From NCBI RefSeq assembly GCF_030684315.1, contig NC_081363.1, positions 39,354,200-39,418,199 of the forward strand: a stretch of DNA of 64,000 nucleotides. The letters are read 5' to 3'. The translations under genes were made by a program, and so were the position numbers. Under the pieces are notes generated by a model. It did not search any database, was not told where the DNA came from, and saw nothing but the letters and a program-made list of their open reading frames with translations. Source of the DNA: Stegostoma tigrinum. Its lineage: Eukaryota. Shown here one piece after another: positions 1,738 through 58,380 of the stretch (positions are counted from its first letter, which is position 1; the number at the start of each line of letters is the position of its first letter).

Positions 1738-2195
1738 AGCCCAGTTCGTCCCCTCCCCCCACTGCACCACACAACCAGCCCAGCTCTTCGCCCCCATCCA
1801 CTGCATCCCAAAACCAGTCCAACCTGTCTCTGCCTCCCCAACCGGTTCTTCCTCTCACCCATCCCTTCCTCCCACCCCAAGCCACACCCCCATCTACCTA
1901 CTAACCTCATCCCACCTCCTTGACCAGTCCATCTTCCCTGGACTGACCCATCCCCTCCCTACCTCCCCACCTATACTCTCTCCACCTATCTTCTTTACTC
2001 TCCATCTTCGGTCCGCCTCCCCCTCTCTCCTTATTTATTCCAGTTCCCTCTCCCCATCCCCCTCTCTGATGAAGGGTCCAGGCCCGAAACGTCAGTTTTT
2101 GTGCTCCTGAGATGCTGCTTGGCCTGCTGTGTTCATCCAGCCTCACATTTTATTATCTTGGAATTCTCCAGCATCTGCAGTTGCCATTATCTCTG
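1738..2195 (+). mobile_element. PLE 3' terminal region; right arm of the inverted composite
   Basis: Reverse-complement match to 596-1015, extended to the ...CATTATCTCTG end. The TSD TCTGATTCATTAAT at 582-595 and 2192-2205 flanks both arms together. Confidence 0.9.
2064..2095 (+). ncRNA. Minimal type-I hammerhead ribozyme motif (intact core) in the PLE terminus
   Basis: CTGATGA (2066-2072), A, stem II GGGT-CCAG-GCCC, GAAA (2086-2089), then C-GTC. Predicted cleavage is after C2093. Palindromic ACGU replaces helix III; stem I is only 2 bp. Confidence 0.7.
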
Positions 2196-2409
2196 ATTCA
2201 TTAATGTTCTTCAGGGAAGAAATTCTGCTATCCTCACCTGGTCTGGCAGATGTGTGACTCTCAGCTGCCCTCTGAAATGACTTAGTAAGCCAGCTGTATC
2301 AATCACTACAAAACTACTCATGGTCCATACTATAACATTTCATACCAAATGAAATGAAAAAAATTCAAAAATCACATTCACTCCTCATAAATCAGTGTAT
2401 ACAGTTACA

Positions 2410-2560
2410 TAAAATAAAACAAAGAACTGCAGGTGCTGGAGGTATGAAAGTGCTGGGAATACTCAGCAGGACTGCCAGTCACTGGGCTCAAAATGTTAAC
2501 TCTGTTTTCTTCCAGATGCTGCCAAACCCACTGAGTTCTGCCATCAATTTCTGATTCTCT
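2410..2560. mobile_element. Old PLE-end fold-back element
   Basis: AAAGAACTGCAGGTGCTGGA...CTCAGCAGG followed by inverted ...AAAATGTTAACTCTG...CAGATGCTGCC...TGAGTT. Resembles the 7555-7720 and 32900-33590 termini. Confidence 0.55.
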
Positions 2561-3074
2561 TGTATAAAATTATGTTTTGACAAATTCTCATCCCTATAAA
2601 ACAACTGACAAATGATGTATTTCATGCACACAATCAAGTAGGAACCCCCCAAAAGACAGACTTTGAAAAGGTCCATAAAGAGGCATGTAGTCAGATACGA
2701 GGCTTGTCCCAACATTGTTTTGTCAGTGAGTTATAAATGAAAGGGTAAGACCCTTTCTGCAGTCCCTGCAAGATTTTGTACAAGTACCTGTAAAAGGTAT
2801 TCAGATAGGATTGGTGAGATCATTCTAGCTTTTTGTCTAAATTTGCTTTTTGACAAAAAAACTTATTCTATTAAGTAGTAATGTTTTATGCTCAAGCACA
2901 TACAAATGTTCAATTTTAGTTGGTTCATACTCCTTTGATTTATTTTATAAAAAGGCATAAATACTCAAAAGTCTAGTTTTTAAAAAGGTGCAGCTTGGAG
3001 TCTGGTAGATTTTGTAGTTGTAAACAATATAAACAAATATTTTAAATAATTAAGACATGGTGAGAGGGGGCTAT

Positions 3075-3172
3075 TTTGGCACAGTGATTGTGCCCCTACC
3101 CCAGGGAACAAAGGCCTGGGCTCCCACCTGCTCCAGAATATGTCATAACATGTCTAAATTGGTTGACTGAAA
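3075..3172 (+). mobile_element. Short decayed tRNA-derived SINE (related copies on the minus strand at ~42360-42460 and ~62580-62675)
   Basis: A-box-like GGCACAGTGATTG, and a 3' part TGTCATAACATGTCTAAATTGGTTGA shared with the other copies. Confidence 0.45.
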
Positions 3173-5230: not shown

Positions 5231-6680
5231 CCGGGAATGGGGGAACGTATCCCTGGAGATCTGGAGATGGGAATGAGAATAAACTCCTGGATATCTGGGA
5301 ATAGCAATGTATCCTCGGAGATCCAGAGCTGGGAATAAGAATAAACTGCTGTACATTTGGGAAAAACAATGTATCCTTGGAGATGCAGAGCTGAGAATGA
5401 GAATAAACTCCTGGATATCTGGGAATAGAAATGTATCCTTCGAGATCCGGAGCTGGGAATAAAAATAAACTCTAGGATACCTAGGAATAGGAATGTATCC
5501 TTGGAGATCCAGAGCTGGGAATGAGAATAACTTCTGGGGTCCTGGCAAAATGAATGTATCCTTGGAGATCCGCAGCTGGAAATGAGAATAACTCCTGGAT
5601 ATCTGGGAATAAAAATGTTTCCTTGGAGATCCAGATCTGGGAGTGAAAATAACTCTTGGATATCAGGGAATAGGAATGTATTTTTGGAGATCCGAAGCTG
5701 GGAAAGAAAATAAACTCCTGGAGATCCGGGAACAGGATTTTTTTTCTGGAGATTTAAAGCTAGGAATAAAAATGTCACCGAAGATTTGGAGATGTGTAAC
5801 TGGGGAACTGGGAATGTGTGAGAGAGACCCGGAGCTGGAAATTGCTTCGGGAGATCTTGGACAAGGAAAGTGTCCCTGGAAACCTAAGAATGGAAAACAC
5901 AAACAGAAGTTGCTGGAAAAGCTCAGCAAGTCGGGCAGCATACGTGGAAAGAAATTAGAGTTAATCTTTCGACACCACTGACCCTTCCTCGGAATGAGAA
6001 TATATAGCCGGAGATCAGGGTATGTGTCCCGAGCTGGGCATGTGAATATGCCCCTGGAAATCCGGGAATGTGAATGTCTCCCTGGAGATCCGAGAATAGG
6101 ATTGTGTTCTGGCGATCCAGAGCAGGGAATTCTCTAGGAAGATCTAGGACCGGGAATGTGTCTCTGGAGATTTACGAATGAAAATGGAAATATGTCCCTG
6201 GAATCTGAGAATGGGAATGTGTCCGGGATATCGGAAAATGGGAAGGTGTCTTGGAACCGGGAATAACAATGTCTCCCTGAAGATCCGGAGCCGGGGATGA
6301 GAATGTGCCCCGGGATATGTGGGAATAGGATCAGGAATATGTCCCGGGAGATCCGGAGCCAGGAATGGGACGGGTTCACGGGCGATCTGGGGACGCAAAT
6401 AGGAATGTGACCCTGGAGATCCAGGAATGGGAGTGTCCCGTGAGATCCGGGAATGGAAATATGCGCCGAGAGATCCGGGAATAGGGCTGGGAATGTGTCC
6501 GGGAGATCCAGAGCCGAGAATGGGAATGCTTCACGGGGTTTTGGGGCCGCGAGTGGGAATATGTCCAGAAATGGGAGTGTCCCGGGACATCCGGGCTGAG
6601 AATGAGATTGTGCCATGGGAGGCCTGGGAATAGGATGTGTCCCGGAAGATCCGGGGCCGGGAATATTTTCTGAGAGATGG
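5230..6680. repeat. Tandem satellite/minisatellite with 61-62 bp period (34+28 bp subunits), degenerating distally
   Basis: The (G/C)GAGAT unit starts at 5255, 5317, 5379, 5441, 5503, 5564, 5625, 5686 and 5748. Consensus is approximately GGAGATCCGGAGCTGGGAATGAGAATAAACTCCTGGATATCTGGGAATAGGAATGTATCCTT. An irregular 28/34-bp version continues 5990-6680. Confidence 0.9.
5893..5994 (-). mobile_element. PLE-end fragment (family 2) inserted in the satellite
   Basis: AAACAGAAGTTGCTGGAAAAGCTCAGC...GAGTTAATCTTTCG...TGACCCTTCCTCGGAA is homologous to 32900-33040 and carries a degenerate hammerhead. Confidence 0.65.
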
Positions 6681-7554: not shown

Positions 7555-7940
7555 CAATGAAAGAGCTGCGGATGCTGTAAATCAGAAACAGAAACAGAAA
7601 TTGCTGGAAAACTTTAACAGAAATCTGAGGAAGGATCACTCAACCCGAAACGTGAGCTCTGATTTCTCTCCACAGATGCTGCCAGAGCAGCTGAGCTTTT
7701 CCAGCAATTTCTGTTTTTGTAATCATTTAGCAAGCTGCTGGGCAGGGAACAACAGAAAAATGTCAACAAGATAATTGCTTAGCAGGTCTGGTAGGATCTG
7801 TGAAGTGAAATCAGAGGTAATGTTTTGGGTTGAGTGACCCTTCAGAAATCTGAGGAAGGGTCACTTGACCTGAAACATGAACACTGATTTCTCTCCACAG
7901 TTGCTGCCAGAGCTGCTGAGCTTTTCCTGCAGTTTTTGTA
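7555..7940. mobile_element. Two adjacent fold-back PLE-end elements (family 2) with degenerate hammerhead cores
   Basis: Inverted arms AAACAGAAATTGCTGGAAAA / TTTTCCAGCAATTTCTGTTT. Cores CTGAGGA...GAAA at 7625-7650 and 7850-7875. Confidence 0.75.
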
Positions 7941-7989
7941 ACCATTTAGCCAACTGCCAGGTAGGGAACAACAGAAAAATGTTAACAAG

Positions 7990-9260: not shown

Positions 9261-9521
9261 CTGGAACATACGAACCACTGTCTGTGTAAAATCATTGCCC
9301 GTGTCTTTTTAAAATCTTTCTCCTCTGACCTTAAGAATATGCTCCCTAGTCATGAAATCCCCAATCCCCAGGCAAAAACATCTGCCATTCACCTTACCTA
9401 AAGCCCTCATAATTTTATAAAATTCTACAAGGTCACCACTCAATCTCCTATGCTCCGGTGACAAAAGTCCCAGCATATCCAGTCTGTCCGTATAATGCAA
9501 ACCCTCCATTCACTGCAACAT

Positions 9522-9577
9522 AATAAAGTGTGAAGCTGGATGAACACAGCAGGCCAAGCAGCATCTCAGGAGCACAA
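9522..9577 (-). mobile_element. 56-bp PLE terminal fragment with 15-bp TSD
   Basis: AATAAAGTGTGAAGCTGGATGAACACAGCAGGCCAAGCAGCATCTCAGGAGCACAA, flanked by CATTCACTGCAACAT at 9507-9521 and 9578-9592. Confidence 0.85.
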
Positions 9578-10164: not shown

Positions 10165-11545
10165 TAACTGCTGTCCATTTCAAGCCCACCGACTCACACA
10201 GCTACCTAGAATACACCTCCTCCCACCCACCCTCCTGCAAAAATTCCATCCCCTATTCCCAATTCCTCCGCCTCCGCCGCATCTGCTCCCACGATAAGAC
10301 ATTCCACTCCCGCACATCCCAGATGTCCAAGTTCTTTAAGGACCGCAACTTTCCGCCCACAGTGATCGAGAACGCCCTTGACCGCGTCTCCCGTATTTCC
10401 CGCAACACATCCTTCACACCCCGCCCCCGCCACAACCGCCCTAAGAGGATCCCCCTCGTTCTCACACACCACCCTACCAACCTCCGGATACAACGCATCA
10501 TCCTCCGACACTTCCGCCATTTACAATCCGACCCCACCACCCAAGACATTTTTCCATCCCCTCCCCGTCTGCTTTCCGGAGAGACCACTCTCTCCGTGAC
10601 TCCATTGTTCGCTCCACACTGCCCTCCAACCCCACCACACCCGGCACCTTCCCCTGCAACCGCAGGAAATGCTACACTTGTCCCCACACCTCCTCCCTCA
10701 CCCCTATCCCAGGCCCCAAGATGACATTCCACATTAAGCAGAGGTTCACCTGCGCATCTGCCAATGTGGTATACTGCATCCATTGTACCTGGTGCGGCTT
10801 CCTCTACATTGGGGAAACCAAGCGGAGGCTTGGAGACCGCTTTGCAGAACACCTCCGCTCAGTTCGCAACAAACAACTGCACCTCCCAGTCGCAAACCAT
10901 TTCCACTCCCCCTCCCATTCTCTAGATGACATGTCCACCATGGGCCTCCTGCACTGCCACAATGATGCCACCCGAAGGTTGCAGGAACAGCAACTCATAT
11001 TCCGCCTGGGAACCCTGCAGCCATATGGTATCAATGTGGACTTCACCAGTTTCAAAATCTCCCCTTCCCCTACTGCATCCCTAAACCAGCCTAGTTCGTC
11101 CCCTCCCACCACCACACCACACAACCAGCCCAGCTCTTCCCCCCCATCCACTGCATCCCAAAACCAGTCCAACCTGTCTCTGCCTCCCTAACCGGTTCTT
11201 CCTCTCACCCATCCCTTCCTCCCACACCAAGCCGCACCCCCAGCTACCTACTAACCTCATCCCACCTCCTTGACCTGTCCGTCTTCCCTGGACTGACCTA
11301 TCCCCTCCCTACCTCCCCACCTATACTCTCTCCACCTATCTTCTTTACTCTCCATCTTCGGTCCGCCTCCCCCTCTCTCCCTATTTATTCCAGCTCCCTC
11401 TCCCCATCCCCCTCTCTGATGAAGGGTCTAGGCCCAAAACGTCAGCTTTTGTGCTCCTGAGATGCTGCTTGGCCTGCTGTGTTCAACCAGCCTCTCATTT
11501 TATTATCTTGGAATTTTCCAGCATCTGCAGTTCCCATTATCTCTC
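10165..11545 (+). mobile_element. 5'-truncated PLE (RT C-terminus, GIY-YIG and 3' terminus)
   Basis: KPTDSHSYLEYTSSHPPSCKNSIPYSQFLRLRRICS (PLE RT thumb) and NVVYCIHCTWCGFLYIGETKRRLGDRFAEH (GIY-YIG). TSD CCCTTCACCACC at 10153-10164 and 11546-11557. The hammerhead at 11416-11443 has GAAA changed to AAAA. Confidence 0.93.
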
Positions 11546-21579: not shown

Positions 21580-22235
21580 GTTTGAAATACCACATCTTTT
21601 CACACTTGACCCCTAGCTACCATAATTAAGGTTGAAACCTTGTTACCTCGCCAATTGTGTAGCTCGCAAGACAATTGGTCCTAACATGGTTCAGGTGTAG
21701 ACTGACCCAATGGTACAGCCCTCACATTCCACAGTACTGGTTCCACCGGCCCATGAATTAGAATCAGTTTTTCCCACACTAGTCTTGAGCCACATACTTG
21801 TCTAATTTTATGTAGCCTATATCAATCTGCAAGTGGTTTGGGAAATAATACAGAATCTATAATTTTGAGGTAATGGGAACTGCGGATGCTGGAGAATCCA
21901 AGATAACAAAGTGTGGGGCTGGATGAACACAGCAGGTCAAGCAGCATCTTAGGAACACAAAAGCTGACGTTTCGGGCCTACTGCTTGGCCTGCTGTGTTC
22001 ATCCAGCCCCACACTTTGCTATCTATAATTTTGAGGTTCTTCTTTTTAATTTTTGCCTAGCTCCTCATACACGCTTTGCAGAACCTCTTTCCAAGCTCTG
22101 CCTATATTGTTGGTACTTACATGGACCACAACCATTGGATCCTGCCCCTTGCACTGCAAGTTCCTTTCCACCCAGCACCTGCTGGGAACATGGCTACTTG
22201 GATACCTGTTCTTTGCTGCAGAGAACAAGGAAGGA
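21580..22235 (-). mobile_element. CR1 ORF1 (SGNH esterase-like) remnant
   Basis: GQDPMVVVHVSTNNIGR...VLQSVYEELG resembles the CR1 ORF1 esterase motif P.VVVH.GTND. Confidence 0.7.
21872..22020. mobile_element. Short fold-back PLE-end element with TSD
   Basis: Arms AAAGTGTGGGGCTGGATGAACACAGCAGG / CCTGCTGTGTTCATCCAGCCCCACACTTT. ATCTATAATTTTGAGGT is duplicated at 21855-21871 and 22021-22037. Confidence 0.88.
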
Positions 22236-24790: not shown

Positions 24791-24822
24791 AATTAAGGAC
24801 ATCTAGAAGGTTCTAAACTGTA

Positions 24823-28600: not shown

Positions 28601-28727
28601 CATGATGTGCAGGTTCCAGTGTTGGACTGGGGTGGAGAAAGTCTGAAGTCACAAGGTACCAGGGTAAAATCCAACAGGTTTATTTGAAATTGCAAGCTTT
28701 CGGAGTGCTGTTCCTTCATCAGGCAAC
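28600..28727 (-). mobile_element. Terminal fragment of a third hammerhead-bearing (probably PLE-derived) family
   Basis: The minus strand reads GTTGC-CTGATGA-A-GGAACAGCACTCC-GAAA-GC-TT-GCAAT-TTCAAATAAACCTGTTGGA..., unrelated to the other two families outside the core. Confidence 0.65.
28689..28727 (-). ncRNA. Minimal type-I hammerhead ribozyme motif
   Basis: Stem I GUUGC/GCAAU, core CUGAUGA, stem II closed by GGA/UCC, GAAA, palindromic AAGCUU in place of helix III, cleavage triplet CUU. Confidence 0.7.
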
Positions 28728-44699: not shown

Positions 44700-45260
44700 G
44701 AATCAAGGCCTGACCAGTATGAGAACAAGACCTGACCCCAGCGTGGCCCAACATTGAGGAGGCCCAACCAGACCGACTACAAGACCCCCAGAGTGCTTGT
44801 GAACGAGACTAGTGCCCACTGGATGTGCCTACCTACCTTGCCAATGCTGGAACCACAAGCCCAGAGGCCTTCCTGTCTCTCACAAGCCTGACTTTGTGGA
44901 AATCTGGAACCAAAGTCCAACGAATGGTAGAACAAAGAGCACGGTGACCTGACATCTAGTAGGCTCAGCTGAACTGGCCACAAAACTCCTTGAAATGCTC
45001 AAGGCTGCAACTGGGGTCCAGAATCTCATCAGGAGCACACATTTACATTCTGGAGCAGAAGACCTCCCTTACTTATTAGGAGCAGCCACAATCTGGGAAA
45101 TGTGAGAGACGGGCTACACTTCAGGTGAGACTGAAACTATGAGGTTTCAAGATCCCCCCTCCCCAGAATACTCCTTGCAAACATCCAAGCCATCGAAAAC
45201 AAGACTTTAAAGCTAGACATACCTTAAAGGAATTAAGAGACTACCGTGTGCTCTGAGCCC
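44700..45260 (+). mobile_element. Rex1/Babar-type LINE 5' remnant (start of the endonuclease)
   Basis: CCCCTCCCCAGAATACTCCTTGCAAACATCCAAGCCATCGAAAACAAG translates PLPRILLANIQAIENK, followed by ...RDYRVL. Confidence 0.55.
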
Positions 45261-46359
45261 TCATTTTTAAAATGCCTCTATTGAACTAATTTGCTTTTGC
45301 TCAGAACTCCGTTATAGAGTAGAAAATTTTGCTATAAAAATTTCCTTAGTTATCCATTTTATGTCCTTTATGAAATAATTAAACATGTCAAATGATGATT
45401 AATCACACTTGAGAATTTTGACAAACTGGGATCTTGGAACTTTAATTAAGTATTATTTGAAAAGAGATGTGTTTTTCTTGGTTAAGCATATCTTCCACTC
45501 TCCTCAGCTCCTATTAAATTAATGAGCAGATGGTTACCCATTCAACAGTGGAATTGTATGACGCCTCTAATAGGATAATAACACACTGTATTGATCATGC
45601 CTACTGGGATTCAGCTCTAATAATTAGATGTGAAAATATATGGTATGATTTCTTTTGAATACAGTATGTTTATAACTATTGCTCTTCATTGAAAATAACT
45701 GCTCTTAAGCACCACTCATGATGCTACTTGGGAAAGTAAGAGAGTCAGAAAAAATCTTTTGATTTAGTATTGCAATTCAGATGGCGTAATTTTTAGATGA
45801 AGTTGGAACAGAAATTTCATAAATAGAGTGTAATGATAAATGGTATAAACATAACTGTCTAACAAAGTGTTCCTTTTCTATTAACTGCCACAAACGCTCA
45901 CGTGAAGATGATTTCATTTTTTTAACGTTAGAAAGGATGTCACTAGGCTGTTTCAGTTGAATGTCTGTAATTTTACTGTCAATATATTATCATATATGTA
46001 TATACACTAATTCTATTTTTGGAAAGAAGAATGATAGCATCAATGCAATATAATTCTCAAAAGGATTGTAATTTATCATTTGATATACAGACTAAAACAA
46101 TATTACATGTATTGTTTACAAATCAAAAGCCAGAAATATTTTCATCTTCTGAAGCCTGACTACAGTAGATTACTGTACTTCTGCTGCACAAATGTTGAGC
46201 TATATCATCATGGTGAGGATGGAGGCCATGCCGTGGAGAAAGGAAAGGAGATTAATCCCCCTTGGGCCTACAAGAGTGAAGGACTAAATGAAATGGTTCT
46301 TTCTTCCTGGTCCCATAAAAACTCTCCCCCAAAAATATCTCCTTAGGATTAACCTGTGG

Positions 46360-46870
46360 TGCTTTTTAAGATTAGGCCACTCACTAACTGAAACGCATGT
46401 CCCTGAACACCCAGGTCATCCATGATTTTATTTCTCTGCTCCACGCACCCTCTGACCTTTTTGTCCTGTGCTGTTCTAATGAAAATCAATGGAAGTTTGA
46501 GGAACAGCATTTCATCTTCCAAAAAAGCTTTTTGTAGTCTTCTGCAGACTCAACATTGAGTTCAACAATTTCAGAGCATGATCTCGACCTCCAGTTTGTC
46601 CTGAATTTTTTGGTTTACTCATTTGACAACACCTAATCGTCTGCTTCACCATTTAGAATGTGTCCTCTAAAGCACATGTTTCTTTTCATGTATGTACTTA
46701 TTCCATCATCACACCCACTGCCCTGCACCGTCACTTCTTTGCCATAAGACTCTCACCTTATCTGATATGCTTATTTGTTCTTCTTCTTCATTTTTCCATG
46801 TCCTGCTTTAAACTTGTTACATTTCTAACATTTTCAAGTTCTGTCAGGTCATTGATCTGAAACGCTAGTG
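46360..46870 (+). mobile_element. Highly decayed PLE 3' end
   Basis: GAGGAACAGCATTTCATCTTC...CTCAACATTGAGTTCAACAATTTCAGA translates EEQHFIF...LNIEFNNFR (GIY-YIG C-terminus). It ends near GATCTGAAACG. Confidence 0.55.
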
Positions 46871-47904
46871 TGAATTTTCCCAGTCCTGTTGACAGAGGGT
46901 TCAAAAGCAGTGCTGCAAAATAGCATATTGTCTCAACTACCTGATAAGTGATCTTGCTGGAGGTAGTGTCAATATAGCAGAGGCTGTAGTGGTTCTTTGC
47001 TGAACAGTAAACTTACCATTCTCACACCAGGACTACTGAATCAGATATGGAACCTGTTTATTTTAAAAATTTATTACAAGATTGCTCTGCAGTCAGGTTA
47101 GCTCGTTTGTTCAGCAACTATAGCTATAGGAAGGCACAACAGTAATCCCCTCAATGTGCAGTGGCTGTTCAACAGGTTCTTCTCCATCCTGATTACATGA
47201 TCGTTAACATCTTCCTTTCTTCCTGACAGCAGCTGATAGCCACTTCAACTCATGAACGGGCTGTTTAGCATAACATTCATAGGATCGCTAAAATCTCTCC
47301 TACTGTTTCAGAACCAAGAGCCACAGTTTAAGGATACGAGGTAGACAATTTAGGACTGAGATGTGGAGAGAGTTATGACCCTGTGGAATTCTCTGCCATA
47401 CAAAGTGATTGACGTTAAAAAAGATTTGCAAAAAGGAGTTAGATTTAGTTCTTGGGAAAGTAAGTGGGAACAGGGTACTGAGTTGGATGATCAGTAGTGA
47501 TTATATTGAATAGTGCAGCAGACTTGAAGGGTCTGCAGAAGACTAAAAATAGCCTTGTTACAAGGTGAAATGCTGTTCCTCAAACTTCCTTTGATCTTCA
47601 TTAGAACAGTACAGGAGGCTGAGAACAAAAAGGTCAGAGGGTGCGTGGAGCAGAGAATTAAAATAACGGATGACCTTGGTGTTCAGGGACATGCGATTCA
47701 ATTAGTGAGTGGCTTAATCTTGAAAAAAGCACCACAGGTTGGTGCCTGAGAAGATATTTTTGGGGCAGAGTTTCTACATGAATGAGCCCTGCTTTGAGGG
47801 TGGAATCTGATGGAAAACCAGGGTCAATGTCCAACAAATGGCTGGGAGCTATCAATGTTACAATTAACCTGCAGCACTAAGCCACTGGGAGTGAGAGTGT
47901 ATCC

Positions 47905-49960
47905 ATGAGTCACAGAGTCATGGAGCAGGGAAACAAACCCTTCGGTCCGACTCATCCATGCTGACCAGGCATCCCAGACCGATCCATTCCCATCTGTCAG
48001 CATTTGGCCCATATCCCTCTAAACCCCTCCTGCTCATATTCACGTATATTCATATAGCACCAACAGCCACAGCTTCTGCTGCAGATGTTAGATCAGCCTT
48101 CTTGAGAGTGAACCCACAGAAAGCAACTGACCCCCATGTGTTTCCCAGCCATACACTCAGATTCTGGTGGACCAGCTGGCAGGAGTATTCATTGAAATCT
48201 TTAATCTCCCTCTACTTCAATCTGAATTCCCTACCTGCTTCAAGAAGACCACCATCATCCCTGTACTGAAGAACAAGCATGTTCCAACAGTTACCACCTG
48301 GAAGCTCAGACATTTATCTTTAAGAAGGGCTTTGAGAGGCTAGTCATGACTCACATCAAATCCATTCCACCAAATTGCCTTGAACCTTTGCAATCATCCT
48401 GCTGATGCAACAGCAAATGCCGTCTCTCTGTCCCCTACATGCATCCCTGGAACATCCGGACAACAAGGATACCTACATCAGGCTCATACTTATTGACCAC
48501 AGCTCTGCCTTCAAAACCATCTTTTGCAAAAAACTAGTCTCCAAACTCCAAACCTAGGTCTTGGCTCCATAACTGATCTTTGATTTCCTGACCCGTAGAC
48601 TGCAATCGGCAAGTTAGACTACCACATAACCACCACTTTAATCTTTATCACCAGTGCCCCACAAGGCTGCCTACTCAGCCCTCTACTGTACTCCTTGTAC
48701 ATGCACAACAGTGTGGCCAAATTCCGCCCAAACTCCATTCGCATGTTTGCTGACAACACCACTATTGTAGGTCGGATCTCAAACAATAACAAGACAGAAT
48801 ACAGGAAAAAGATTGAGTGCTTAGCGATATGGTGTAAAATCTCTCTATCAACATCAGCAAAAGAAAGAAGCCTGACTTCAGGAAACAGAGCAGAGGACAC
48901 GCTCCCATCTGCATCAATGGTGCTGGTCTGGAAATGATTGAAAGCATTAATTTCTTGGGAGTAGTGATCACCAACAATCTGTCCTCCACCTACATCCTTG
49001 CAATGGTCAAGAAAGGACAACACTGCCTCTACTTTTGCAGGAAGCCATGGAAATTTGGCACGTCCACAAAGACTCTTTACACTTGTTGTAGATGCACCGT
49101 GGAAAGCATCCTATCTTGATGCATCACAGCATGTTATGTCAACTGCTCCTCCCAAGACCATATGAAACTACAGAGAGTTGTGAATTTGCCCAGTCCACCC
49201 CACAAATACGAATTCCATCCATTGACCCCATCTCTACTTCTCACTGCCTTGGGAAAGCAACTAACATAATCAAAGACCTCTCCCACCACAGCTATACCCT
49301 CTTCCACCATCTTCTGTCAGGCAGAAAGTATAAAATTTTGAATACATGTAAGAACAGATTCAACAATGGCTTCTTCCCCACTTTTGAATGGAACTCTCAA
49401 AATATTAATGCCGAGCTCTGTCTTTGAACCTTCTCTGGAGCTGCAATGCTGTATTCTGCACTCTGTTCTGCTACAGTGATGCACTTTGTATGGTACGAAC
49501 TGCCTGTAGAGCATGCAAAACAACACTGTTCACTGTATCTCGGTAACTGTGACAACAATAAACCAAACCAAACCAGATCAATTCAAATCAAATCATGTAC
49601 CCATCCAGGTGCCTTTTAAATGCTGTGATAACACCAGCCTCCACCACTTGCGCTAGTAGCTTGGTCCATACATGCAGCACACTCCAAATGAAAATGTTGT
49701 TCCTCAATGCCTTTTAAATATTTCTCCTCTCACCTTCAACAATGCCCTCTAGTTTTGGACATCCCAACTCTGGGAAAAAGACCATGGCTATTCATCCCAT
49801 CCATGCCCATCATTGTTTTATAACCCTCTATAATATCACCCCTCAGCCTCCGACACTCCAGAGCAAAATCCCCCAGACTTTTCAGCCTCTCCCTATAGGT
49901 CAACCCTCCAATCCTTGTAAATCTTTTCTGAACCCTGTCAAGTTCAACACATCTTTCTAT
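47905..49960 (-). mobile_element. CR1 3' end split by a Rex1/Babar insertion (pieces ~47905-48040 and ~49590-49960)
   Basis: GAGTCACAGAGTCATGG tail; resumes with ELDRVQKRFTR...CRRLRGDIIEGYKTM. Confidence 0.8.
48050..49592 (+). mobile_element. Rex1/Babar-type LINE RT and 3' tail
   Basis: DVRSAFLRVNPQKATDP, SAPQGCLLSPLLYSLY, SIRMFADNTTIVGRISNN, FLGVVITNNLS, with an (AAACC/AAATC)n tail. Confidence 0.85.
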
Positions 49961-50064
49961 AGTAGTTCCACCCATATAACTTCACTAGACATTCTCCTCA
50001 CTAAGTACAATCTTACTGTTACCCTTAACCAAAGCCAACCCCCGCCCCTGTTTCTCTCCTTCCT

Positions 50065-50790
50065 TTAGTGTCTATACCCTGGAACATTAAGCTGCCAGTC
50101 CATCGCCTCCCTGAACCATGTTTTTGTAATAGCCATGATATCCCAGTCCCATGTTCCAAACCATATCCTCAGTTCATCAGCTTTTCCTCTTCCATTGAAA
50201 TAAATGCAATTTAGCTTATTAGTTTTACCTCATTCTCTGCGTGCTTTTGCCTGCTTTGACTATTTAACTGGCTCTCTTTATCTATTGTACCAGCCTCAGA
50301 CTTATCTTTTTTTCTCACTATCTCTTTAGATCCCATCGCCTTACAAGTTTAAAAGCTCCTGAGTAGGGTAGGGTATCACCCTGATATCACCCTGGTATCC
50401 TGCCAGGGTATTAGTCCCCTTCCAATTCCCTTCAGTCCAAACCATCCATGCTAGCCATAATCCCAAACTACGTTAGACCCATGTGCCTGTGCTTGGCCCA
50501 CATCCCTCCAAACATTTCTTATTTATGTGCTTACCTAAATATTTTTTAAAGTGTTGTAACTATATCCACAGCTACATTTTCATCTGGAAATTCGCTCCAG
50601 GCATGAACCACTCTCTGCATAAAAAAATTGCCCATCATGTCTTTTTTAAATCTTTCTTCTCTTCTTAAAAATATGCCCATAGTCTTTAAATTCTCCACCT
50701 TAGGGGAAAGAACTTGGTTATTCATCTAATCTATACGCCTAATACATTTATAAACAGCTAAAGATCTCCCCCCCACCTCCAATGTTTCCT
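50065..50790 (-). mobile_element. CR1 fragments (endonuclease start and a separate 3' end)
   Basis: Reverse-strand WDIMAITKTWFRE motif; 3' UTR GGCCCACATCCCTCCAAAC similar to the other CR1 copies. Confidence 0.6.
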
Positions 50791-51280
50791 ATATTGTCTC
50801 TGCAGGACCTTGTTTCTTTCTCTACCACAGGAATCACCTGTGCAGAATTTTTAATTATTCCAATGTTGTAGACAGCTGTTTCATTTTAGGGTATTTTCCC
50901 AGTCTTCTTCGTGTCTCAGTGGGGCTATTTCCAGGTGTTGCTGTGGATCCACCTACTGGGCCTTCTGTTTCCATGCTCTGTTTACTGACCTGAAGTGGCT
51001 CAGATTCCCAGAGGCAGCTTCTTAATTGTCTGCCTTCAGGAAGATCACAGCTGCAATCCTGACCCAGAACTGAGACTGGTGGCTACTGGGGGAGTGCGGG
51101 TAAGTGGAGTTGAAATGCCCATCAGCCATGATTAAGTAGAGATGTGGACTTGATGGGCCAAATGGCCTTACTTCCACTCCTATGACTTATGGTCTTATGG
51201 ACTTTGGAATCATACTCCAACTGAAAACATCCAGTCCATTTCACTCTCCTCACAGATGTACCAAACTTGCTGAATATTTA

Positions 51281-51488
51281 GAGATAACAAGGTGTAGAGC
51301 TGGATGAACACAAGGAGCAAGAAGGCTGACGTTTTGGGCCTAGACCCTCATTCAGAAATTTCTGAAGAAGGGTCTAGGCCCGAAACATCAGCCTTCCTTC
51401 TCCTCTGATGCAGCTTGGCCTGCTGTGTTCATTCAGCTCTGTACCTTGTTATTTCAGATTCTCCAGTATTGGCAGTTCCTATTATCTC
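51281..51488. mobile_element. Palindromic PLE-end element with 13-bp TSD and back-to-back hammerhead motifs
   Basis: Symmetric about ...TTCAGAAATTTCTGAA.... Plus-strand core CTGAAGA-A-GGGTCTAGGCCC-GAAA-CATC (51362-51389). TGCTGAATATTTA at 51268-51280 and 51489-51501. Confidence 0.9.
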
Positions 51489-53264
51489 TGCTGAATATTT
51501 ATTTGACTTTAAGCTTTTAGCTCTGTCCATTTACACATTAAAAAAAATCCAACTGGTATTATCTGTTGAGAAAAATAATATCCAATCTGAAATTAGAGCA
51601 AAGTTCAGAAACTGCTGGAGAACAGGAGATCTGGCAGCACCAGCGGAGACCGTAGGCTCTGATTTACATCCATACCCTAGGCAAGTATGCTTTTGCACGT
51701 TTACAGGCCCAGCTGAAAAATTACTTGAGCCAGGCCATGAGCATCAATCGAATAAGATAATTTGCCCCTCCCCTAATTTACAACTAGTAGCTCATATTTC
51801 TTAAATAAGATACAAGTGCAACAGTTATACATTGTTCAATAAGTATATCTATTTTTAACTTGCTAATTTCCTGTGACATTGCCTGCAAGTAATATGCAAT
51901 CTGAGCTGCATTCATGACAATCAGAGAGGTCTTATTCAAGCTTGAGAGGGGAACTCAGTTCTGGCCCAGGGGGCAGGGTAGAAAATCTTAAGGTCAGTAC
52001 TTTGCAATAGAAAACTGTTACAGTTTCCCTTCATCGATCAATACAATTTAAAGCAAGTAACTCAAGAAATGTAACATAAATATTTATTCGTACAATGACA
52101 CATAAATCACACATAAATTTCATTAAAGGTTCCACTTAGAATAATCAAAAAGGTGCCCCACCAGGCTAATTGTTGACTGTTTGTGTCTTAATAACCCTGA
52201 CTTCACATCCTGGTGAGAATACAGCAACTTGCAGTAGATGTTTTAACCTTAGGACTGATTTTCAATCAGTCGGTATTATATGGTGCGAGAAATAATGCCT
52301 AGTCTGAAATGAGAGTAAAATTCAGGAACTGCTGGAGAACAGGAGATCTGGCAGCTCCAGTGGAGAAAGAGGGAAGTTAACATTTTGACTCCAATGACTG
52401 TCCTTCCAAACAAACGTTATTTGTAATTGCCAGCAAGGCTATTCTTTCTAGGTACAGTCCATTTGTAAGTCACGTCATTATTTTGTGGACAATTCTGGGA
52501 GTGGTATTCTACTGGAATGCAATGCACATGACATGGAGCCAGTTTTGGGAATAATAGTTCCTGAATGTGACATGCAGAAAATGACACTCGAGAGTTCTAG
52601 GATTTGTATTCTACTATCTGGTTGGACCTCAGAAGGAACGGTGATGACAACTACATACTGCAAATAGTAGAGATTTCCTGTGCACCTAATTTACCCTGTA
52701 CTTGACTACAGAATTGCTGCAGACAATAAAAATGTACAAAAACTTTCCACTTTGTAGAACTGACAAATACGAAGAAGTTTTCCAATAAAGCTTTTTATTT
52801 CACTTTCATTTTGCAAATCACACACGTACATATACTTGAGCTTTTTTTTCTCTATGGGCATAAATTAGCTGGATTGCAATTTATTTTGAAAATTGACAGC
52901 CAAGGGAGGTTGAGATACTAGTGCCTGAGGGTGGAATAATTATCTAAAAAAATGAAGCAATTGATATATTCTTAAGTTAGAGCAGTCTCTATTATATCTG
53001 CAGTGGCTTGCTTTGATAGTTTTCTGCTCCCAATGATTTTTTTGAAATGACTAATTCATTTTCCATGACAACTTGGTCTGTTCACCTTAATTGCAGTTTC
53101 AGTAACTCTTTCTATTTTGATCATCAGCTTTGTTTCAAAACCAGCAAAGAGGAAACAGTGAAATAAGCACAATAATATGTACATATGCATAGACAGTCAG
53201 GTGAAAGTCTTCAGTCCTTCTGCTCCCATTTTAGCCTGGGCAAGAAAGTTATGGAAGGGCCAGA

Positions 53265-54410
53265 CATTAGGCTACTGAATAAAATAAGAGCTCATGGTCT
53301 TGGTGTTAGTATGTTAGCACGGATACAGGATTTGATAACTAGTTGGGAATAAGGAGGGCATTCTCAGGATGGTGATCTGTAAATAGTGGTATGCCACTAA
53401 GATCAGTGATGGGGGCCACATTATTAACAATGTATATTAGTCAATTGGATGAAGAAAGTGAATGTGCTGTAGCCAGGTTTGCAAATGACACAAGGATGGG
53501 GGGGGGAGGCAAATGTTGAGGATGACACAAAGAGTCAATGGAAGAATATAGACAGGTTGGTTGAATGGACAAAAACTTGGCAGATAGAATATAATGTGGG
53601 GAAATATAAGATGATGCACTTTGATAGGAGGAATAGAGGAGCTGAATATTACTTAAATAGAAAAAGCTTTCAGAAATCTAGAGAACAGAGGTATTTGTGA
53701 GTTTCTGGTGCATGAATCTCAAAAATCTAGCATTCAGTTCAGTGGGTAATAAGGAAGGCATTTAGAATGTTGGTCTTTATTTCAAAGAGAATGGAAAATA
53801 AAACAAAAGGGGTGGTTTTGCTAAACGGTACAAGTCATTAGTCAGACTACAGCTGGAATATTGTAAACTGTTTGGGTTCCTTAACCAAGGAAAGTGAGAA
53901 TGGCATCAGAAACTGTCCAAATAAGGATCACTAGGCTGATCCTTGATATGGAGATTCTGCCTTATGAGGAAAGTTTGAGAAGATTGGGCCAGTAGTCACT
54001 GGAATATACAAGAATGAGAGATGACCTAATTGAAACATATAAGACTCTTGAAGGAATTGACAAGATAGATTCAAAAAAGTTGTTTCAACTTGTGGGAGAG
54101 TCTAGGATTAGACGATCAAAGAATAAGTGATTGTACATTCAAGGTAAAGATGAAGAAAAGCTTCCTCTGTCAGGGGATCATGAATTTGCAGGATCCTTTA
54201 CCACAGAGAGCTGTTGAGGCTGGTCATTAAGTATATTCAAGGCTGAAGTTGACAGATTTATAATCAGTAAGGGAATTGAGAGTTATGGGGAAAAGGCAGG
54301 AAAGTGGAGTTGAGGATCATGAAATCATCCATGACCTCATTGAATGGTGGAACAGACTCAATGGGCTGAATGGGCAACTTCTGCTCCTATGTCTTAATGT
54401 TCTATAGTTC
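53265..54410 (+). mobile_element. CR1 RT to 3' tail
   Basis: RFANDT, NIDRLVEWTKTWQIEYNVGK..MHF and RDDLIETYK motifs; 3' tail CTTCTGCTCCTATGTCTTA. Confidence 0.82.
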
Positions 54411-55999
54411 ATACTGGAATCTAATAGAGCTATAATGAAATATTGAGAGGATATGCTGTCAATTTGCGAAGGTGAAGCAACAAAATCTATTTAAAAGGAG
54501 GCATTCCATAAAAAGAGCCAGTCAGACTATCTCAGTGTCATTTCAGGAAAAGGTCACAACTTCTTGTTCAAACTCACAAGTTCCATTTTAATTTGCATCC
54601 CATGAGACTAGGCAAGTACCGAACCACAGTCCTGGCACAAATAAAGGGCTATGGTCGATTCTGTCAACTCTACCCATGTTACTAGTGTAGGCACTGGGGG
54701 GGACAGATCCAAATTGTGATGTTCCTCTTTCGTAGGTGATCTCCCACTAGCTTGTGTTGTTCTCACTCACATGAATATGTTTACCCACATTACTTCAACC
54801 TCCCTCATCGATCTCCTCAGCACAGAGAAGTGACTAAAAGAATGGGCTTGACTTTTCATAACCCCATGGTTTCCTCCTGCTCTGTCTTCTAACACATACC
54901 CGATTGTTGCCAAGACATTGACCAATCGTTACCACCTCCCACCCCAACTGTGAAACTCCTCACTGCTTATTCACCTTCCTGCCTGATTTCAAAAGTTAAA
55001 TCATTTTTCTTTTTAATGCCATCTTTTAATATATTTCCTGTTTTGTCTTCCTGCTATCCACCATATTGTAAGAATCTGTCAGTCCTGCAGGTCCCGTGCA
55101 AACAATAAGGGGTTCAAGTATTACTATTCAGAGACCATAGCGATGAACTGTCTAGGGAATGCCTGAAAGAAAAGGACATAAAGGTTCAGGGGCCGTCTTG
55201 ATTACCAGTTTGAGATTGTGCCAAATGTGACTTGAGTTGCTTTCAATTTTCAATGGACTGCTAAATGTTGACTGCAAATGTGAAATGGTTGTGGTCACAA
55301 CCTGAGTGGGTGGAGTCAACTTTTTTTCAGGACACGTGGTCTCCACTTCTGAGTGACAGGCGGTCTTTCAAGGAGCAGTTACACCACTTGCAGAGTATAG
55401 GTTGAAGTCAACTGTATTGATGGCATTGTACATGTGAAATGCATTGTATGCACATGGTGTGTAACTGTGTACAACTAGGGTACAGATGCTGTTCACAAGC
55501 AGTCTTGACCATACCATTTGTCTTTACAGAGTGGAAAAAGTTATTTTTCCCAAGCAGAATTAATCAAAGATGACCTTAAAATCTGCAGGCTATGGAGTAC
55601 ACAGCTAATAAAGATCTCTTGGGAAGAACTGGGGCATGGAACTGATTTCCTTTCATCTTGAACTGTGAGTATTCTGCAACATGCCATTATACATAATGAT
55701 GCTGTTCTTGGGTAATATGGGCTCGGAACACGTGGCCTCAGTAGTCATTCAGCACTTACAATCTCCTACTGCCTTTCTGTGGCAAGACTGGTGCTACAGT
55801 GATTGGAAGAAGGTCCAAGTTCAAAGTACCATGTGGAGGCATTGCATGGCACTCCTTATCCCACTGTGTGGAAGATTATGTCAAACTGTCATTTGTGATG
55901 CAAATAGTGGCTGCTTGCAATACTAAGTTGTACACTGTTCCTCTTGCAGGGTCATTGCAAGTGTAACTAGTGGATCCAGCTTCAGCAGACAATACCGTT

Positions 56000-57150
56000 G
56001 CTGTTGCTGCAATACAATGAAGATGCAGAGAAATTGAGAAGGAACAAATGTCTTAACAAGCCCAAGAGCAGCAGCAATCTCCAGCAGACACCTAAACAGC
56101 CCCCACATGAAGAGTTCACAGCAGAAGGGCACCTTCACATGTCAGAGAAATGCATGGGATATACGGGAGGGCCAGAGTCTCTCATCTTCGATGGCATTTC
56201 CTCCATATGAGTGAGGCTCAGCTGTACAGGCAGAGGATTCCCTGGCAGACAATGGCTGATGGAGCAAGACACTTAACCTGAAGAAGTAACTGGCCATCCT
56301 ACCCAAGAGACTGTTAAATTTGACTGCTAAATGTTGAATTTTCATGCTTCTCAGTCCTGCTAAAGGAATCACTAACCACTGTGCATGATTTCTCAGTTGT
56401 CCACCCACTAGAATATCAAGGCTGATAACGACGCTCCATCTCATTTCCCTGTGACGAGGTCAGTGCCGAAGCCTTGGTGGTCACTTTTAGGAACATAGGT
56501 GGCTTCTTCCGGGTACCAGAAGCAGTAAATTGTCTCCATATCACATTAATGCTGCCAAGTTTATCAACAGAGAAAAGTTTCATTTCATTGTTGTGCTAAT
56601 CACCTGAGATCATCAGCACTGCACCTTAGAAATCTGCACACAGAATGTAAATGAAATGAACACCTGCGTTTTTCATCCCTGTGAGCTGCCAAGACGAATA
56701 TATCCCTGAGGCTGCCTATGTTTGTCCTTTGTTTGAGAGGCCAGATACCTGACAAGAACAGCTACTGGGGGACATCCTGTGAGTAAGGCTGATGACTCCA
56801 ATATGCAAACTTCTGACTTGAGCGGAGCGTAGATACAATGCTATTCTTTGACCATGGCCGTTGTGGAACAGACTAATAGTCCTCCTGAAGATAAGTTCTG
56901 ATGCTTGGGTCAGTCTGAGTGTGATTTATAATAGTGCAAACAGAGAGTGCTGCATCATGCTTTGCACAATGGGAGCAGACAAAAACAGGATATGATGGAG
57001 GCTGAAAAACTAGGAGAGTGGGAGCAGTCATACAAGGAGAAAGATGAGGATATTGAGCAGGAAGATTATCGCCTTCTGTATGAGACCGTAGCAGCATTGG
57101 CTGCTACAGGCCAACAGGGCTCGATTAACACTCAGTTTTAGTTGAAAGCT
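56000..57150 (+). mobile_element. Decayed PIF/Harbinger transposase (HARBI1-like DDE)
   Basis: Frameshifted pieces in the expected order: GFFRVPEAVNCLHI (~GFP.V.GA.DCTHI), FINREKFHFIVVLIT*DH (~NRKG.HS.NVQ..CD), QLLGD, AERRYN, AVVEQT..LLK..F*CL, ALHN, then an acidic tail. Confidence 0.75.
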
Positions 57151-58192
57151 AGGGTCAGTAATCATTTATTCTCTGGTGCTTGAAAGGCAAACAATTTCTT
57201 TGTGTTTTCAGAGGCATGTGCTTCTTCTTTACATTCGATTTTTGTTCACGTTTACCGTTGATGAATAAAAGTGACTGGTTTAATGCATCTGAAGGCTTTA
57301 CAGTTTGCAATGGGTGTACATTGGGCAGTTATAAAATGCTGGATTAAACTGGGCATTTGGAAAGGGCTAGCAGTGACTTCGACAGGGTTGTAAGATAGCA
57401 GCTGGCTAAGTACAGGTAAGCTGTGGGGCCTGGTGCTCAAATAGTCATTCATGCCACTTGTGTGCTGTGAGAAACATTGGCTTGTGGTTGTTACTCCATT
57501 ACAAAGATAGCGAAGGGCTACTATGTACTGCCAATGCTTGAGGGGTACACAGCTGGGTTCAAAGATGATGCCAGTGCCAGGCATCCCAGGATATCCTGGC
57601 AGGAGCGAGTATTTTTGCCTGTGCCAAATGGGTGAATCAGAGAAGTGGAATGCACTAGGGACGTGGTTAATAGAGTGAGTTTGTGACAATAGAATGAGGA
57701 AACCACTTGGCTTCCTGGAGAGAAATCCTCCATGAAACCCACAAAGGTGATACTTGGCTAATTTCTGATAAGATTCAGCTCAATGTTTTTCTCAATGTAT
57801 CAAATTGAATACTTAAACTGTATCTGTAGGAATTGAATTCAACTTATGAATGGGAAATGGACAGATGTATGAGTACATCTGTAAGTCAGTAATTACCTTT
57901 GATTTTCTGCCTATCAAAACTAGAAACCCTGGCTAGTTGGATGATATATTTAGATCTAATTTAGGACATTGTGGTAATGTCTGAAAAAAAATCTCTGCAT
58001 TAACAAAACGTAACCAAACAGCACTTTGCAGAAAATTCCTGAAAAGTATAAATCCTACTGAAAACAAACACTATTTTCTGTACAAAAATGCACACTGACA
58101 TTGCTTAGAATGCCAACTGGGTTAGCTTGTTTTGTTACTTGTTACTTGGTTGGCAGCCAACCATATAAAGCAAACAAATCTCTGAGAATAAA

Positions 58193-58380
58193 GATAGTAG
58201 GAACTGCAGATGCTGGAGGATCTGAGATAACACGGTGTGAAGCTGGATGAACACAGCAGGCCAAGCAGCATCAGGGGAGCAGGAAAGCTGATGTTTCTGA
58301 AGAAGGGCCTCGACCCGAAACGTCAGCTTTTCCTGCTCCTCTGATGCTGCTTGTGCTGCTGTGTTCATCCAGCTTCAAAC
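58193..58380. mobile_element. Fold-back PLE-end element with 13-bp TSD and intact hammerhead core
   Basis: Arms GAAGCTGGATGAACACAGCAG / CTGCTGTGTTCATCCAGCTTC. Core CTGAAGA-A-GGGCCTCGACCC-GAAA-CGTC (58297-58324). CTCTGAGAATAAA at 58180-58192 and 58381-58393. Confidence 0.9.

What the first reader, a model, noticed from the sequence alone, without database searches (positions are those of the whole stretch)
2064..58324. Three independent families of minimal hammerhead ribozymes dispersed through the locus
Seen: CUGANGA-A-stem II-GAAA-NN-UH motifs recur in three unrelated terminal repeats. Family 1 has stem II GGGU-CUAG-GCCC and an ACGU palindrome; cores are intact at 2066-2093 (+) and 58297-58324 (+), the palindrome is lost at 51362, and GAAA is lost at 11416, ~660-688 (-) and ~24925-24953 (-). 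Family 2 has GGGUCACUGGACC with stem I AGUU/AACU, in decayed copies at 5960-5990, 7625, 7850, 33000-33040 and 33497. Family 3 is at 28689-28727 (-) with an AAGCUU palindrome and a 5-bp stem I. Established: Penelope-like elements carry minimal type-I hammerheads lacking helix III that are proposed to cleave as dimers through a palindromic loop. Inference: at least three PLE lineages in this shark keep the same catalytic architecture with different stems and palindromes, so each may dimerise preferentially with its own family. The window holds about a dozen ribozyme or ribozyme-relic sites.
Basis: partly seen in the sequence, partly recalled or inferred. Interest (0 to 1): 0.72.

Follow-up and report, generated by a model that had tools for sequence, protein, structure and literature searches.

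The report
Penelope hammerhead stubs begin near promoter
These are real copies of a known small self-cutting RNA motif carried in the end repeats of a very common jumping gene, and many copies stop at the motif's front edge rather than at its cut site, which likely marks where the element's RNA starts.

Summary
They are minimal type-I hammerheads in the pLTRs of Neptune-type Penelope-like elements (PLEs), a known association.

Two inferences fail. Families 1 and 2 are homologous sisters. They share the ACGU palindrome, so family-specific dimerisation is sequence-plausible only for family 3. Both 'intact' family-1 cores sit inside inverted repeats that bury them in folding models.

The more informative feature lies outside the finding. 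In 1.22 Mb of position-picked genome, 127 of 230 copies reaching the CUGA box end within the 10 nt before it. There is no peak at the cleavage site. That edge lies about 30 nt downstream of a TATA-like box in all four family references, and family 1a junctions carry an excess G. Likely mechanism: transcription starts at helix I, and internally primed reverse transcription runs off the RNA's 5' end, leaving solo-ribozyme stubs. Against this, 0 of 7 ORF-linked 5' ribozymes start there, and no RNA data were available. This scan noted the same pile-up before on other DNA; seven literature searches did not show it in print.

The parts
598..1735 (-). Family 1a PLE, 5'-truncated: endonuclease end, 3' UTR, hammerhead with dead GAAA box (C3 at 688), short tail; left arm of an inverted pair
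1738..2201 (+). Family 1a right arm of the same inverted pair, long tail; pair flanked by a 14-bp target-site duplication at 582 and 2192
2032..2038 (+). TATA-like box, 34 nt before C3 and 30 nt before the modal 5' boundary of family 1a stubs
   Evidence: sequence; only TATAWAW match (1 mismatch allowed) in -350..+130 of the family reference; function inferred
2066..2093 (+). Intact minimal hammerhead core, family 1a (predicted cut after 2093); base-paired to the partner arm in cofolding
2478..2561 (+). Family 2 stub starting inside helix II (+10)
5895..5994 (-). Family 2 stub starting at -2, decayed core (C3 at 5992)
7559..7720 (+). Family 2 fold-back: inverted tail piece plus stub starting at -1 (C3 at 7625, G17)
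7777..7939 (+). Family 2 fold-back: inverted arm (+5) plus stub starting at -1 (C3 at 7850, G17); flanks repeat those of the 7625 unit
9516..9577 (-). Family 1a tail-only stub starting at +33, 15-bp target-site duplication
10165..11544 (+). Family 1a PLE, 5'-truncated: linker with Cys motif, GIY-YIG endonuclease, 3' UTR, hammerhead with G12A (C3 at 11416), long tail
14963..15022 (+). Family 1 tail-only stub starting at +34
21867..22028 (-). Family 1 fold-back stub (arms start at +13 and +49), 17-bp target-site duplication
24819..25442 (-). Family 1a PLE end with the same dead GAAA box as the copy at 688 (C3 at 24953), own 11-bp target-site duplication
28601..28723 (-). Family 3 stub: intact core 28722-28694 with AGCU palindrome, plus tail
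28724..28736 (-). Probable inverted fragment of the family 3 tail; supplies the apparent 5-bp helix I arm
   Evidence: compared by eye
32930..33590 (.). Family 2 inverted pair with upstream body on both arms (C3 at 33036 on -, 33497 on +), both cores broken
51281..51490 (.). Family 1b palindrome; both arms end at -4; ACGU lost at 51362; 13-bp target-site duplication at 51268 and 51489
58192..58382 (.). Family 1b fold-back; + arm starts at -3 with intact core 58297-58324; predicted long hairpin sequesters CUGA flank, GAAA and cut site; 13-bp target-site duplication at 58180 and 58381
43865..61363 (.). Four further decayed tail pieces: 43865-43902 (+), 51590-51649 (-), 52307-52407 (-), 61313-61363 (-)

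Best explanation
The motifs are minimal type-I hammerheads in the end repeats of three related Penelope-like retrotransposon families, and many genomic copies are short stubs that begin just before the ribozyme, likely because the element's transcript starts there and internally primed reverse transcription runs off its 5' end. Shown: motif, linkage to a GIY-YIG endonuclease, the 5' boundary pile-up at -10..-1, no peak at the cut site, two 3' ends about 35 nt apart, a TATA-like box about 30 nt before the boundary. Inferred: the TATA box directs RNA polymerase II to start at the first bases of helix I (about -4 in families 1 and 2, -7 in family 3). The element's protein primes reverse transcription at the tail sites (+90 to +99 or +124 to +134). 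Priming in the 3' repeat gives copies that run on into the body. Priming in the 5' repeat copies an uncut RNA to its end, often adds one base, and is joined or folds back, giving simple or palindromic stubs. The ribozyme would then sit directly under the cap. Cleavage, probably needing a partner copy and the element's protein, would remove the cap and about 30-35 nt. Most inserted copies are decaying relics.
For: PLE linkage: Pfam GIY-YIG and RVT_1 hits, both below the curated cut-off. A 935-aa frame has RT, a C-x4-C-x2-C linker and a CCHH endonuclease. tblastn hits occur in 21 of 29 family 2 loci and 14 of 30 family 3 loci, the latter partly from neighbouring family 1/2 copies, and the family 3 reference translates to an endonuclease. 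Boundary: 122 position-picked 10-kb regions, copies found by the tail only, 420 non-edge copies of families 1-3. Of 230 reaching -1, 127 stop in -10..-1 (0.55 per 10 nt). Upstream bins give 0.011-0.087, bins +10..+49 give 0.05-0.095, and 0..+9 gives 0.19. Around the cut site (+27..+31) there are 3.4 ends per nt against 2.0-3.0 beside it. The pile-up holds without inverted partners (61 of 233). Stubs are insertions: 14 of 66 simple stubs share a word of 8 nt or more between their flanks against 2.8% of shuffled pairs, and only 4 flank pairs among the 66 resemble each other. TATA: the only TATAWAW site (1 mismatch allowed) in -350..+130 lies at -34, -35, -33 and -39 in the four references, whose upstream sequences are not significantly alignable between families 1, 2 and 3. 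Extra G in family 1a: of the 100 rows listed, 35 end in the last four body bases and 33 are non-body. Of these, 22 have a non-reference base in front, 17 of them G, or 12 of 17 after dropping 5 that the partner arm could template (hand tally; p=2e-4). Contigs of run X3 show a single G at two listed joints into position -4. In vitro precedent for internal priming and for uncut RNA as template: PMC11167929.
Against: No RNA 5'-end data exist here. Of 19 loci holding the 5' part of the family 1a ORF, 7 keep a linked upstream ribozyme and 0 of 7 start at the boundary; all run 139 nt or more further upstream. A plain linear template starting at -4 does not explain these without a strand transfer or a read-through or circular template. 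The extra-G excess is absent in family 1b (6 of 19, p=0.39) and family 2 (5 of 15, p=0.37) and marginal in family 3 (6 of 11, p=0.05) (hand tallies). Family 1a has no purine at the boundary, so a classic initiator does not fit it. The boundary is spread over several bases, and family 1a has as many ends at 0..+9 (21) as at -10..-1 (18). Only 14 of 66 simple stubs show a clear duplication. Family 3 has only 10 copies in the unbiased sample. The fourth family shows no pile-up (0 of 13). D. virilis Penelope uses a TATA-less internal promoter (PMC2377424). Thermodynamic models never favour the active fold.
Confidence: 0.62

Rival explanations
1. Roadblock or snap-back: reverse transcription of a long RNA ends at the ribozyme's front edge because the cDNA of the ribozyme hairpin folds back and self-primes; no transcription start is involved.
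For: The family 1 monomer folds into an extended hairpin pairing CUGAUG with CGUCAG. About half of family 1 copies have an inverted partner (60 of 122 and 78 of 157). Junction classes such as (-3, +17..+21) join through short homology with the GAAA box, as at 58297.
Against: Simple stubs without a partner pile up at the same place (61 of 233). Long ORF-linked copies pass the 5' ribozyme without stopping (0 of 7 stop), where a 55% roadblock would give about 0.4%. It does not explain the fixed TATA spacing or the extra G in family 1a. Families 2 and 3 fold differently yet share the boundary.
Confidence: 0.2
2. The stubs are non-autonomous, retrozyme-like or SINE-like units that are themselves copied, so the boundary is inherited from a few founders.
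For: Very high copy number: 27,724 exact matches of one family 1 core with a non-body base at -12. PLE-derived non-autonomous retrozymes are reported in vertebrates, including one chondrichthyan (bioRxiv 10.64898/2026.07.22.740005).
Against: Boundaries and inversion points differ from copy to copy, flanks are unrelated, stubs lack the upstream promoter-like box, and they are not in tandem arrays of the unit.
Confidence: 0.1
3. Ribozyme cleavage defines the template end: dimers cut the precursor to unit length and the 3' product, or a circle made from it, is what inserts.
For: This is the published proposal (PMC4209133). ORF-linked copies preceded by a partial tandem copy (7 of 7) fit a circular or multimeric template.
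Against: No excess of 5' ends at the cut site (17 ends in +27..+31). Stubs keep the whole ribozyme. Two separately duplicated insertions here share a dead GAAA box. Ribozyme mutants insert normally in vitro (PMC11167929). It may still hold for the rare long copies.
Confidence: 0.08
4. One reading: each lineage's ribozyme dimerises preferentially with its own family, insulating independent families.
For: Family 3 (AGCU) forms only 2 of 4 helix III pairs and 0-1 helix I pairs with any other family. Family 4 forms helix I only with itself.
Against: Families 1, 2 and 4 share ACGU. The family 2 core pairs 4+4 bp with the family 1 substrate strand, more than family 1 with itself (4+2). Families 1 and 2 are homologous.
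Confidence: 0.15

Closest known systems
[quoted passage not shown]
   Same: Conserved boxes, extra nucleotide between 9 and 10.1, G10.1-C11.1 pair, palindromic 15.2-16.2, no helix III, mostly solo copies genome-wide, several families per genome.
   Different: Helix II is 3-5 bp rather than 7-8 as in Schistosoma; family 1 helix I is only 2 bp, like the D. virilis variant. The parts read do not treat sharks or copy boundaries and ascribe solo motifs only to 'truncated PLEs'.
Neptune/Nematis-type EN+ PLEs with pLTR, inverted 5' copy and 30-40-bp tail (Craig et al. 2021, PMC8557442; Arkhipova et al. 2013, PMC3846280; passages read)
   Same: RT, CX2-5CxxC linker, C-terminal GIY-YIG with CCHH; partial tandems, inverted arms, palindromic junctions, two 3' ends about 35 nt apart; a putative TATA plus initiator was noted in a rotifer pLTR.
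   Different: In the passages read, 5' truncation is described as frequent, not as concentrated at the ribozyme's front edge.
Anolis Poseidon PAc in vitro (Frangieh et al. 2024, PMC11167929; text parts 1-2 of 4 read)
   Same: Internal priming at two sites downstream of the ribozyme, both DNA strands extended, uncut RNA as main template, no reads ending at the cut site.
   Different: Poseidon clade; ORF starts in helix II, whereas the family 1a ORF ATG is at about +166 behind an in-frame 27-codon upstream frame. The transcription start was not mapped in the parts read.
D. virilis Penelope promoter (Schostak et al. 2008, PMC2377424; abstract and passages read)
   Same: Transcription starts in the pLTR upstream of the ribozyme; the intron ends at helix I (PMC4209133), so the ribozyme is near the 5' end of the spliced RNA.
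   Different: TATA-less internal promoter and a 75-bp intron 46 nt after the start; here a TATA-like box lies 33-39 nt before C3, leaving no room for such an intron.
Animal non-LTR retrozymes (bioRxiv 10.64898/2026.07.22.740005; part 1 of 5 and passages read)
   Same: PLE-derived short type-I hammerhead repeats, reported in one chondrichthyan genome.
   Different: Defined as tandem arrays of units; the stubs here are dispersed single or inverted copies with target-site duplications.

Membership tests
Minimal type-I hammerhead (PLE min-HHR) | CUGANGA and GAAA boxes with U16.1-H17 | tested here: met
   4 strict hits in the window against 0.15 expected; intact in 49 of 66, 35 of 94, 18 of 73 and 1 of 7 sampled copies of families 1a, 1b, 2 and 3 reaching C3
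Minimal type-I hammerhead (PLE min-HHR) | Extra nucleotide before helix II and G10.1-C11.1 pair | tested here: met
   Extra A in 132 of 135 family 1, 24 of 25 family 2 and 36 of 36 family 3 intact cores; G-C or its CpG-decayed G-U dominates
Minimal type-I hammerhead (PLE min-HHR) | Palindromic 15.1-16.1 in place of helix III | tested here: met
   ACGU in families 1, 2 and 4 (with CpG-decayed forms), AGCU in 33 of 36 family 3 cores
Minimal type-I hammerhead (PLE min-HHR) | Helix II and short helix I with compensatory changes between families | tested here: met
   Read from the commonest variants, no formal covariation statistic: helix II pair 3 G-C, A-U, U-G; pair 4 U-G, U-A, G-C, A-U; first helix I pair U-A, C-G, A-U. 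Helix I is 4 bp in families 2 and 3 but 2 bp in family 1, under the 4-5 bp of the published consensus
Minimal type-I hammerhead (PLE min-HHR) | Self-cleavage as a dimer | not testable with these tools
   Nearest-neighbour energies put the active dimer fold 8-29 kcal/mol above the cofold minimum for the five homodimers; such models omit tertiary and protein help
EN+ PLE, Neptune/Nematis type | Single ORF with RT and C-terminal GIY-YIG carrying CCHH | tested here: met
   Family 1a: RVT_1 E=4e-5 and GIY-YIG E=0.005, both below Pfam's cut-off, in one 935-aa frame; families 2 and 3 endonuclease by translation and tblastn only, RT not examined
EN+ PLE, Neptune/Nematis type | CX2-5CxxC linker before the endonuclease | tested here: met
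   C-x4-C-x2-C in family 1a; decayed equivalent in family 2, CxxC half seen in family 3; feature as defined in PMC8557442
EN+ PLE, Neptune/Nematis type | Placement in the Neptune clade by RT phylogeny | not tested
   No reference RT set was available; Neptune versus Nematis is not resolved
EN+ PLE, Neptune/Nematis type | pLTR tandem, inverted 5' copy, 30-40-bp tail | tested here: met
   7 partial tandems among 19 loci; inverted partners and 3' ends at about +90-99 and +124-134
Non-LTR retrozyme | Head-to-tail array of at least two units each with a complete hammerhead | tested here: not met
   No such array in the window; the only same-strand near pair, 7625 and 7850, has G17 in both and repeated flanks
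Rfam hammerhead families | Covariance-model match | tested here: not met
   None among 15 matches at E<=10; expected for motifs lacking helix III

The most novel reading that the evidence does not exclude
In these Neptune-type PLEs the hammerhead is the first thing transcribed: a TATA promoter starts the mRNA at helix I, so the ribozyme is a cap-removing switch rather than a unit-length processor. The repeat from the start site to the tail acts like a retroviral R region. Its strong-stop-like cDNA either jumps to the 3' repeat to rebuild the pLTR and promoter, or is inserted abortively, producing several hundred thousand solo ribozymes per genome. This would account together for short helix I, solo min-HHRs, palindromic stubs and partial tandems.
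Probability: 0.3. Interest if true: 0.72.

Novelty: new member of a known kind. Interest (0 to 1): 0.42.

Why it matters
The ribozymes themselves add only more examples to a class described in 2014. What PLE hammerheads do, and how pLTRs and solo motifs arise, is still open: PMC8557442 calls their function unclear, and PMC11167929 found cleavage dispensable in vitro. The boundary pile-up gives a nucleotide-level prediction for the transcription start in three families. One cap-mapping experiment can test it. If right, it moves the ribozyme's likely role from cutting out the genome unit to controlling the capped 5' end of the mRNA, and explains a repeat class of roughly a million pieces (438 in 1.22 Mb, extrapolated).

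Tried and rejected
Rfam scan: no hammerhead family; the microRNA hits at 51312-51405 and 58261-58354 are below gathering scores and reflect the fold-back arms.

RNA evidence: no RNA holder listed. Only contigs were available, two of guessed RNA kind from another organism, so start sites and expression could not be read.

A genome-wide ribozyme-dead subfamily behind the shared change at 688 and 24953: rejected, only 3 exact matches in the genome, 2 of them in this window.

Boundary as an artefact of unknown subfamily bodies: mostly rejected by unrelated flanks and duplications. One of those 66 rows was a family 1a copy wrongly assigned to family 2 and was removed.

Extra-G test in families 1b and 2: no excess.

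Core versus tail divergence within families (1.5 v 4.9%, 5.6 v 9.9%, 7.7 v 15.8%, non-CpG sites) points the expected way but is not relied on. Alignment anchoring and base composition bias it, and the family 2 core index was off by one.

Dimer energies were invalid (2-nt loops) and were redone, where the family 2 copy picked carries a helix I mutation.

The family 4 reference rests on 5 copies with inverted parts, so its TATA scan is not usable.

A 2017 RNA Biology paper on dimer cleavage of PLE hammerheads is recalled but not held.

Supplement search of PMC4209133 for shark names was blank in 2 files, and file 1 could not be searched, so sharks may be listed there. Supplements of the other papers were not seen.

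Full report
Coordinates below given as -n or +n are relative to C3 of the CUGA box (C3 = 0).

OBSERVATION. A strict descriptor finds 4 complete cores in the window (2066, 51362, 58297, 28722 minus) against 0.15 in shuffles. Mapping with family references gives 25 tail-bearing pieces, 13 of which reach C3. Rfam holds no model that matches them. The 58297 core has a 3-bp helix II. Family 1 helix I is 2 bp. Sites 7625 and 7850 have G17. The fifth pair and the 5' arm of the family 3 helix I come from outside the aligned copy, probably an inverted bit of its own tail.

WHAT THEY BELONG TO. Family 1 motifs lie downstream of GIY-YIG frames in the window. A genomic family 1a copy has one 935-aa frame with RT, a C-x4-C-x2-C linker and a CCHH-type endonuclease, the layout given for Neptune and Nematis elements in PMC8557442. 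Families 2 and 3 also have endonuclease remains upstream. In 7 of 19 loci holding the 5' part of the ORF, endonuclease, 3' UTR, ribozyme and tail run directly into a second ORF, the partial tandem that forms a pLTR. The 3' ends cluster at about +90-99 and +124-134, the optional tail. A fourth family with its own ribozyme occurs elsewhere in the genome but not in the window; protein seen upstream of one decayed copy resembles Poseidon by my recall.

INDEPENDENCE AND DIMER SPECIFICITY. Family 1 and 2 tails align well above shuffles (52-56 against a maximum of 39), while family 3 and 4 tails align to nothing. Family 2 protein remains are 37-52% identical to family 1a, family 3 about 30%. So two of the three families are sisters. 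Families 1, 2 and 4 share ACGU; family 3 has AGCU. In a dimer, helices I and III form between molecules. The family 2 core then makes 4+4 pairs with the family 1 substrate strand, where family 1 makes 4+2 with itself. Only family 3 is excluded by sequence.

STATE OF THE WINDOW COPIES. G12 sits in a CpG and is the commonest loss: G12 to A in 9 of 66 family 1a and 27 of 93 family 1b copies. The core at 58297 is buried in a predicted -118.6 kcal/mol hairpin. The one at 2066 pairs along its length with the partner arm at 620-720. The family 3 core has no partner in the window. These loci are unlikely to cleave in a read-through transcript (inference).

THE BOUNDARY. I sampled 122 regions of 10 kb chosen by round coordinates and found copies using only sequence downstream of the cut site. 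There were 438 copies; 420 of families 1-3 lay away from region edges. Their 5' ends: 127 in -10..-1, 55 in 0..+9, 17 in -50..-11 and 17 in +27..+31. Of copies reaching -1, 55% stop in the next 10 nt, against 1-10% in other bins and 19% in 0..+9. There is no peak at the cut site. The pile-up is strong in families 1b (48 of 157) and 2 (57 of 131), weaker in 1a (18 of 122, with 21 more at 0..+9), present in family 3 on few copies (4 of 10), and absent in family 4 (0 of 13). It persists among copies without an inverted partner. Simple stubs have unrelated flanks and an excess of target-site duplications (14 of 66 against 2.8%). Window examples carry duplications of 11-17 bp.

WHY THERE. In each of the four references the only TATA-like site within -350..+130 lies at -33 to -39, about 30 nt before the modal boundary. 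That is the usual TATA-to-start spacing (established knowledge). Families 1b, 2 and 3 have a pyrimidine-A-pyrimidine initiator-like stretch at the boundary; family 1a has only pyrimidines. Family 1a copies starting at -4 carry an excess G in front (12 of 17 after exclusions, hand tally, p=2e-4; 9 G, 6 C, 2 T among 17 held loci, about half of the G's templatable; single-G joints in run X3). A G there is what reverse transcription of a capped end leaves (recalled from LINE-1 work, no call). The excess is not seen in families 1b and 2. PMC11167929 showed that a PLE protein primes inside its RNA at the tail sites, extends both DNA strands and uses uncut RNA. Together these suggest run-off at the transcript's 5' end.

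WHAT DOES NOT FIT. None of the 7 ORF-linked 5' ribozymes begins at the boundary. This counts against a roadblock, but also against a simple linear template. Long copies need a jump into the repeated 3' region, a read-through transcript or a circle. No RNA starts could be read.

COMPARISON AND NOVELTY. Minimal hammerheads in PLE pLTRs, their dimer logic and their mass occurrence as solo motifs are published (PMC4209133). PLE-derived retrozymes are reported in a chondrichthyan (bioRxiv 10.64898/2026.07.22.740005). Inverted copies, tails and a putative pLTR TATA box are known (PMC8557442, PMC3846280). Seven searches listed no paper describing the boundary pile-up or a start site at helix I; subscription papers and most supplements were not searchable. 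I noted the idea. The later look-up showed that this scan had reported the same pile-up in six windows of other genomes and fold-back stubs in another piece of this genome. Those are unchecked notes and are not counted as support.

VERDICT. Observation confirmed; identity known; independence and family-specific dimerisation mostly not supported. The boundary pattern is real and gives a cheap test of an open question. Interest 0.42.

Noticed in passing
window 660-688 (-) and 24925-24953 (-): Two insertions with separate target-site duplications share 9 differences from the family reference, including a triple change that kills the GAAA box; the motif has 3 exact matches genome-wide, the third on contig C2. 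Either a ribozyme-dead template inserted more than once or local gene conversion.
   Followed up: partly
L296, L299, L304, L307 (small contigs C687, C781, C140, C70), about 1 kb or more before the anchor: 5'-truncated family 1a ORF joined at the same base to long telomeric hexamer arrays with a recurring variant unit; probably one subtelomeric junction that was multiplied.
   Followed up: no
L302 and other tandem copies, +46 to +168: An in-frame 27-codon upstream frame starts just after the cut site and stops 12 codons before the main ATG; similar frames appear in families 1b and 2. Possible translational control.
   Followed up: no
L064:6501 (-) and 6700 (+), L153, L156: A fourth hammerhead family with longer helix II, U at the extra position and ACGU palindrome; 0 of 13 copies end at the ribozyme edge.
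   Followed up: partly
position-picked sample, 23 family 1a inverted pairs: The two arms of a pair often share non-reference bases, as if copied from one source or homogenised; the window pair 598-2201 shares only 3.
   Followed up: no
window 4001-7000: CpG-rich stretch (observed/expected 0.73-0.87) containing a 62-bp tandem array at 5242-5737; possibly a host promoter region.
   Followed up: no
window 7559-8000: Two family 2 fold-back units about 225 nt apart with repeated flanking sequence, suggesting a local tandem duplication.
   Followed up: no
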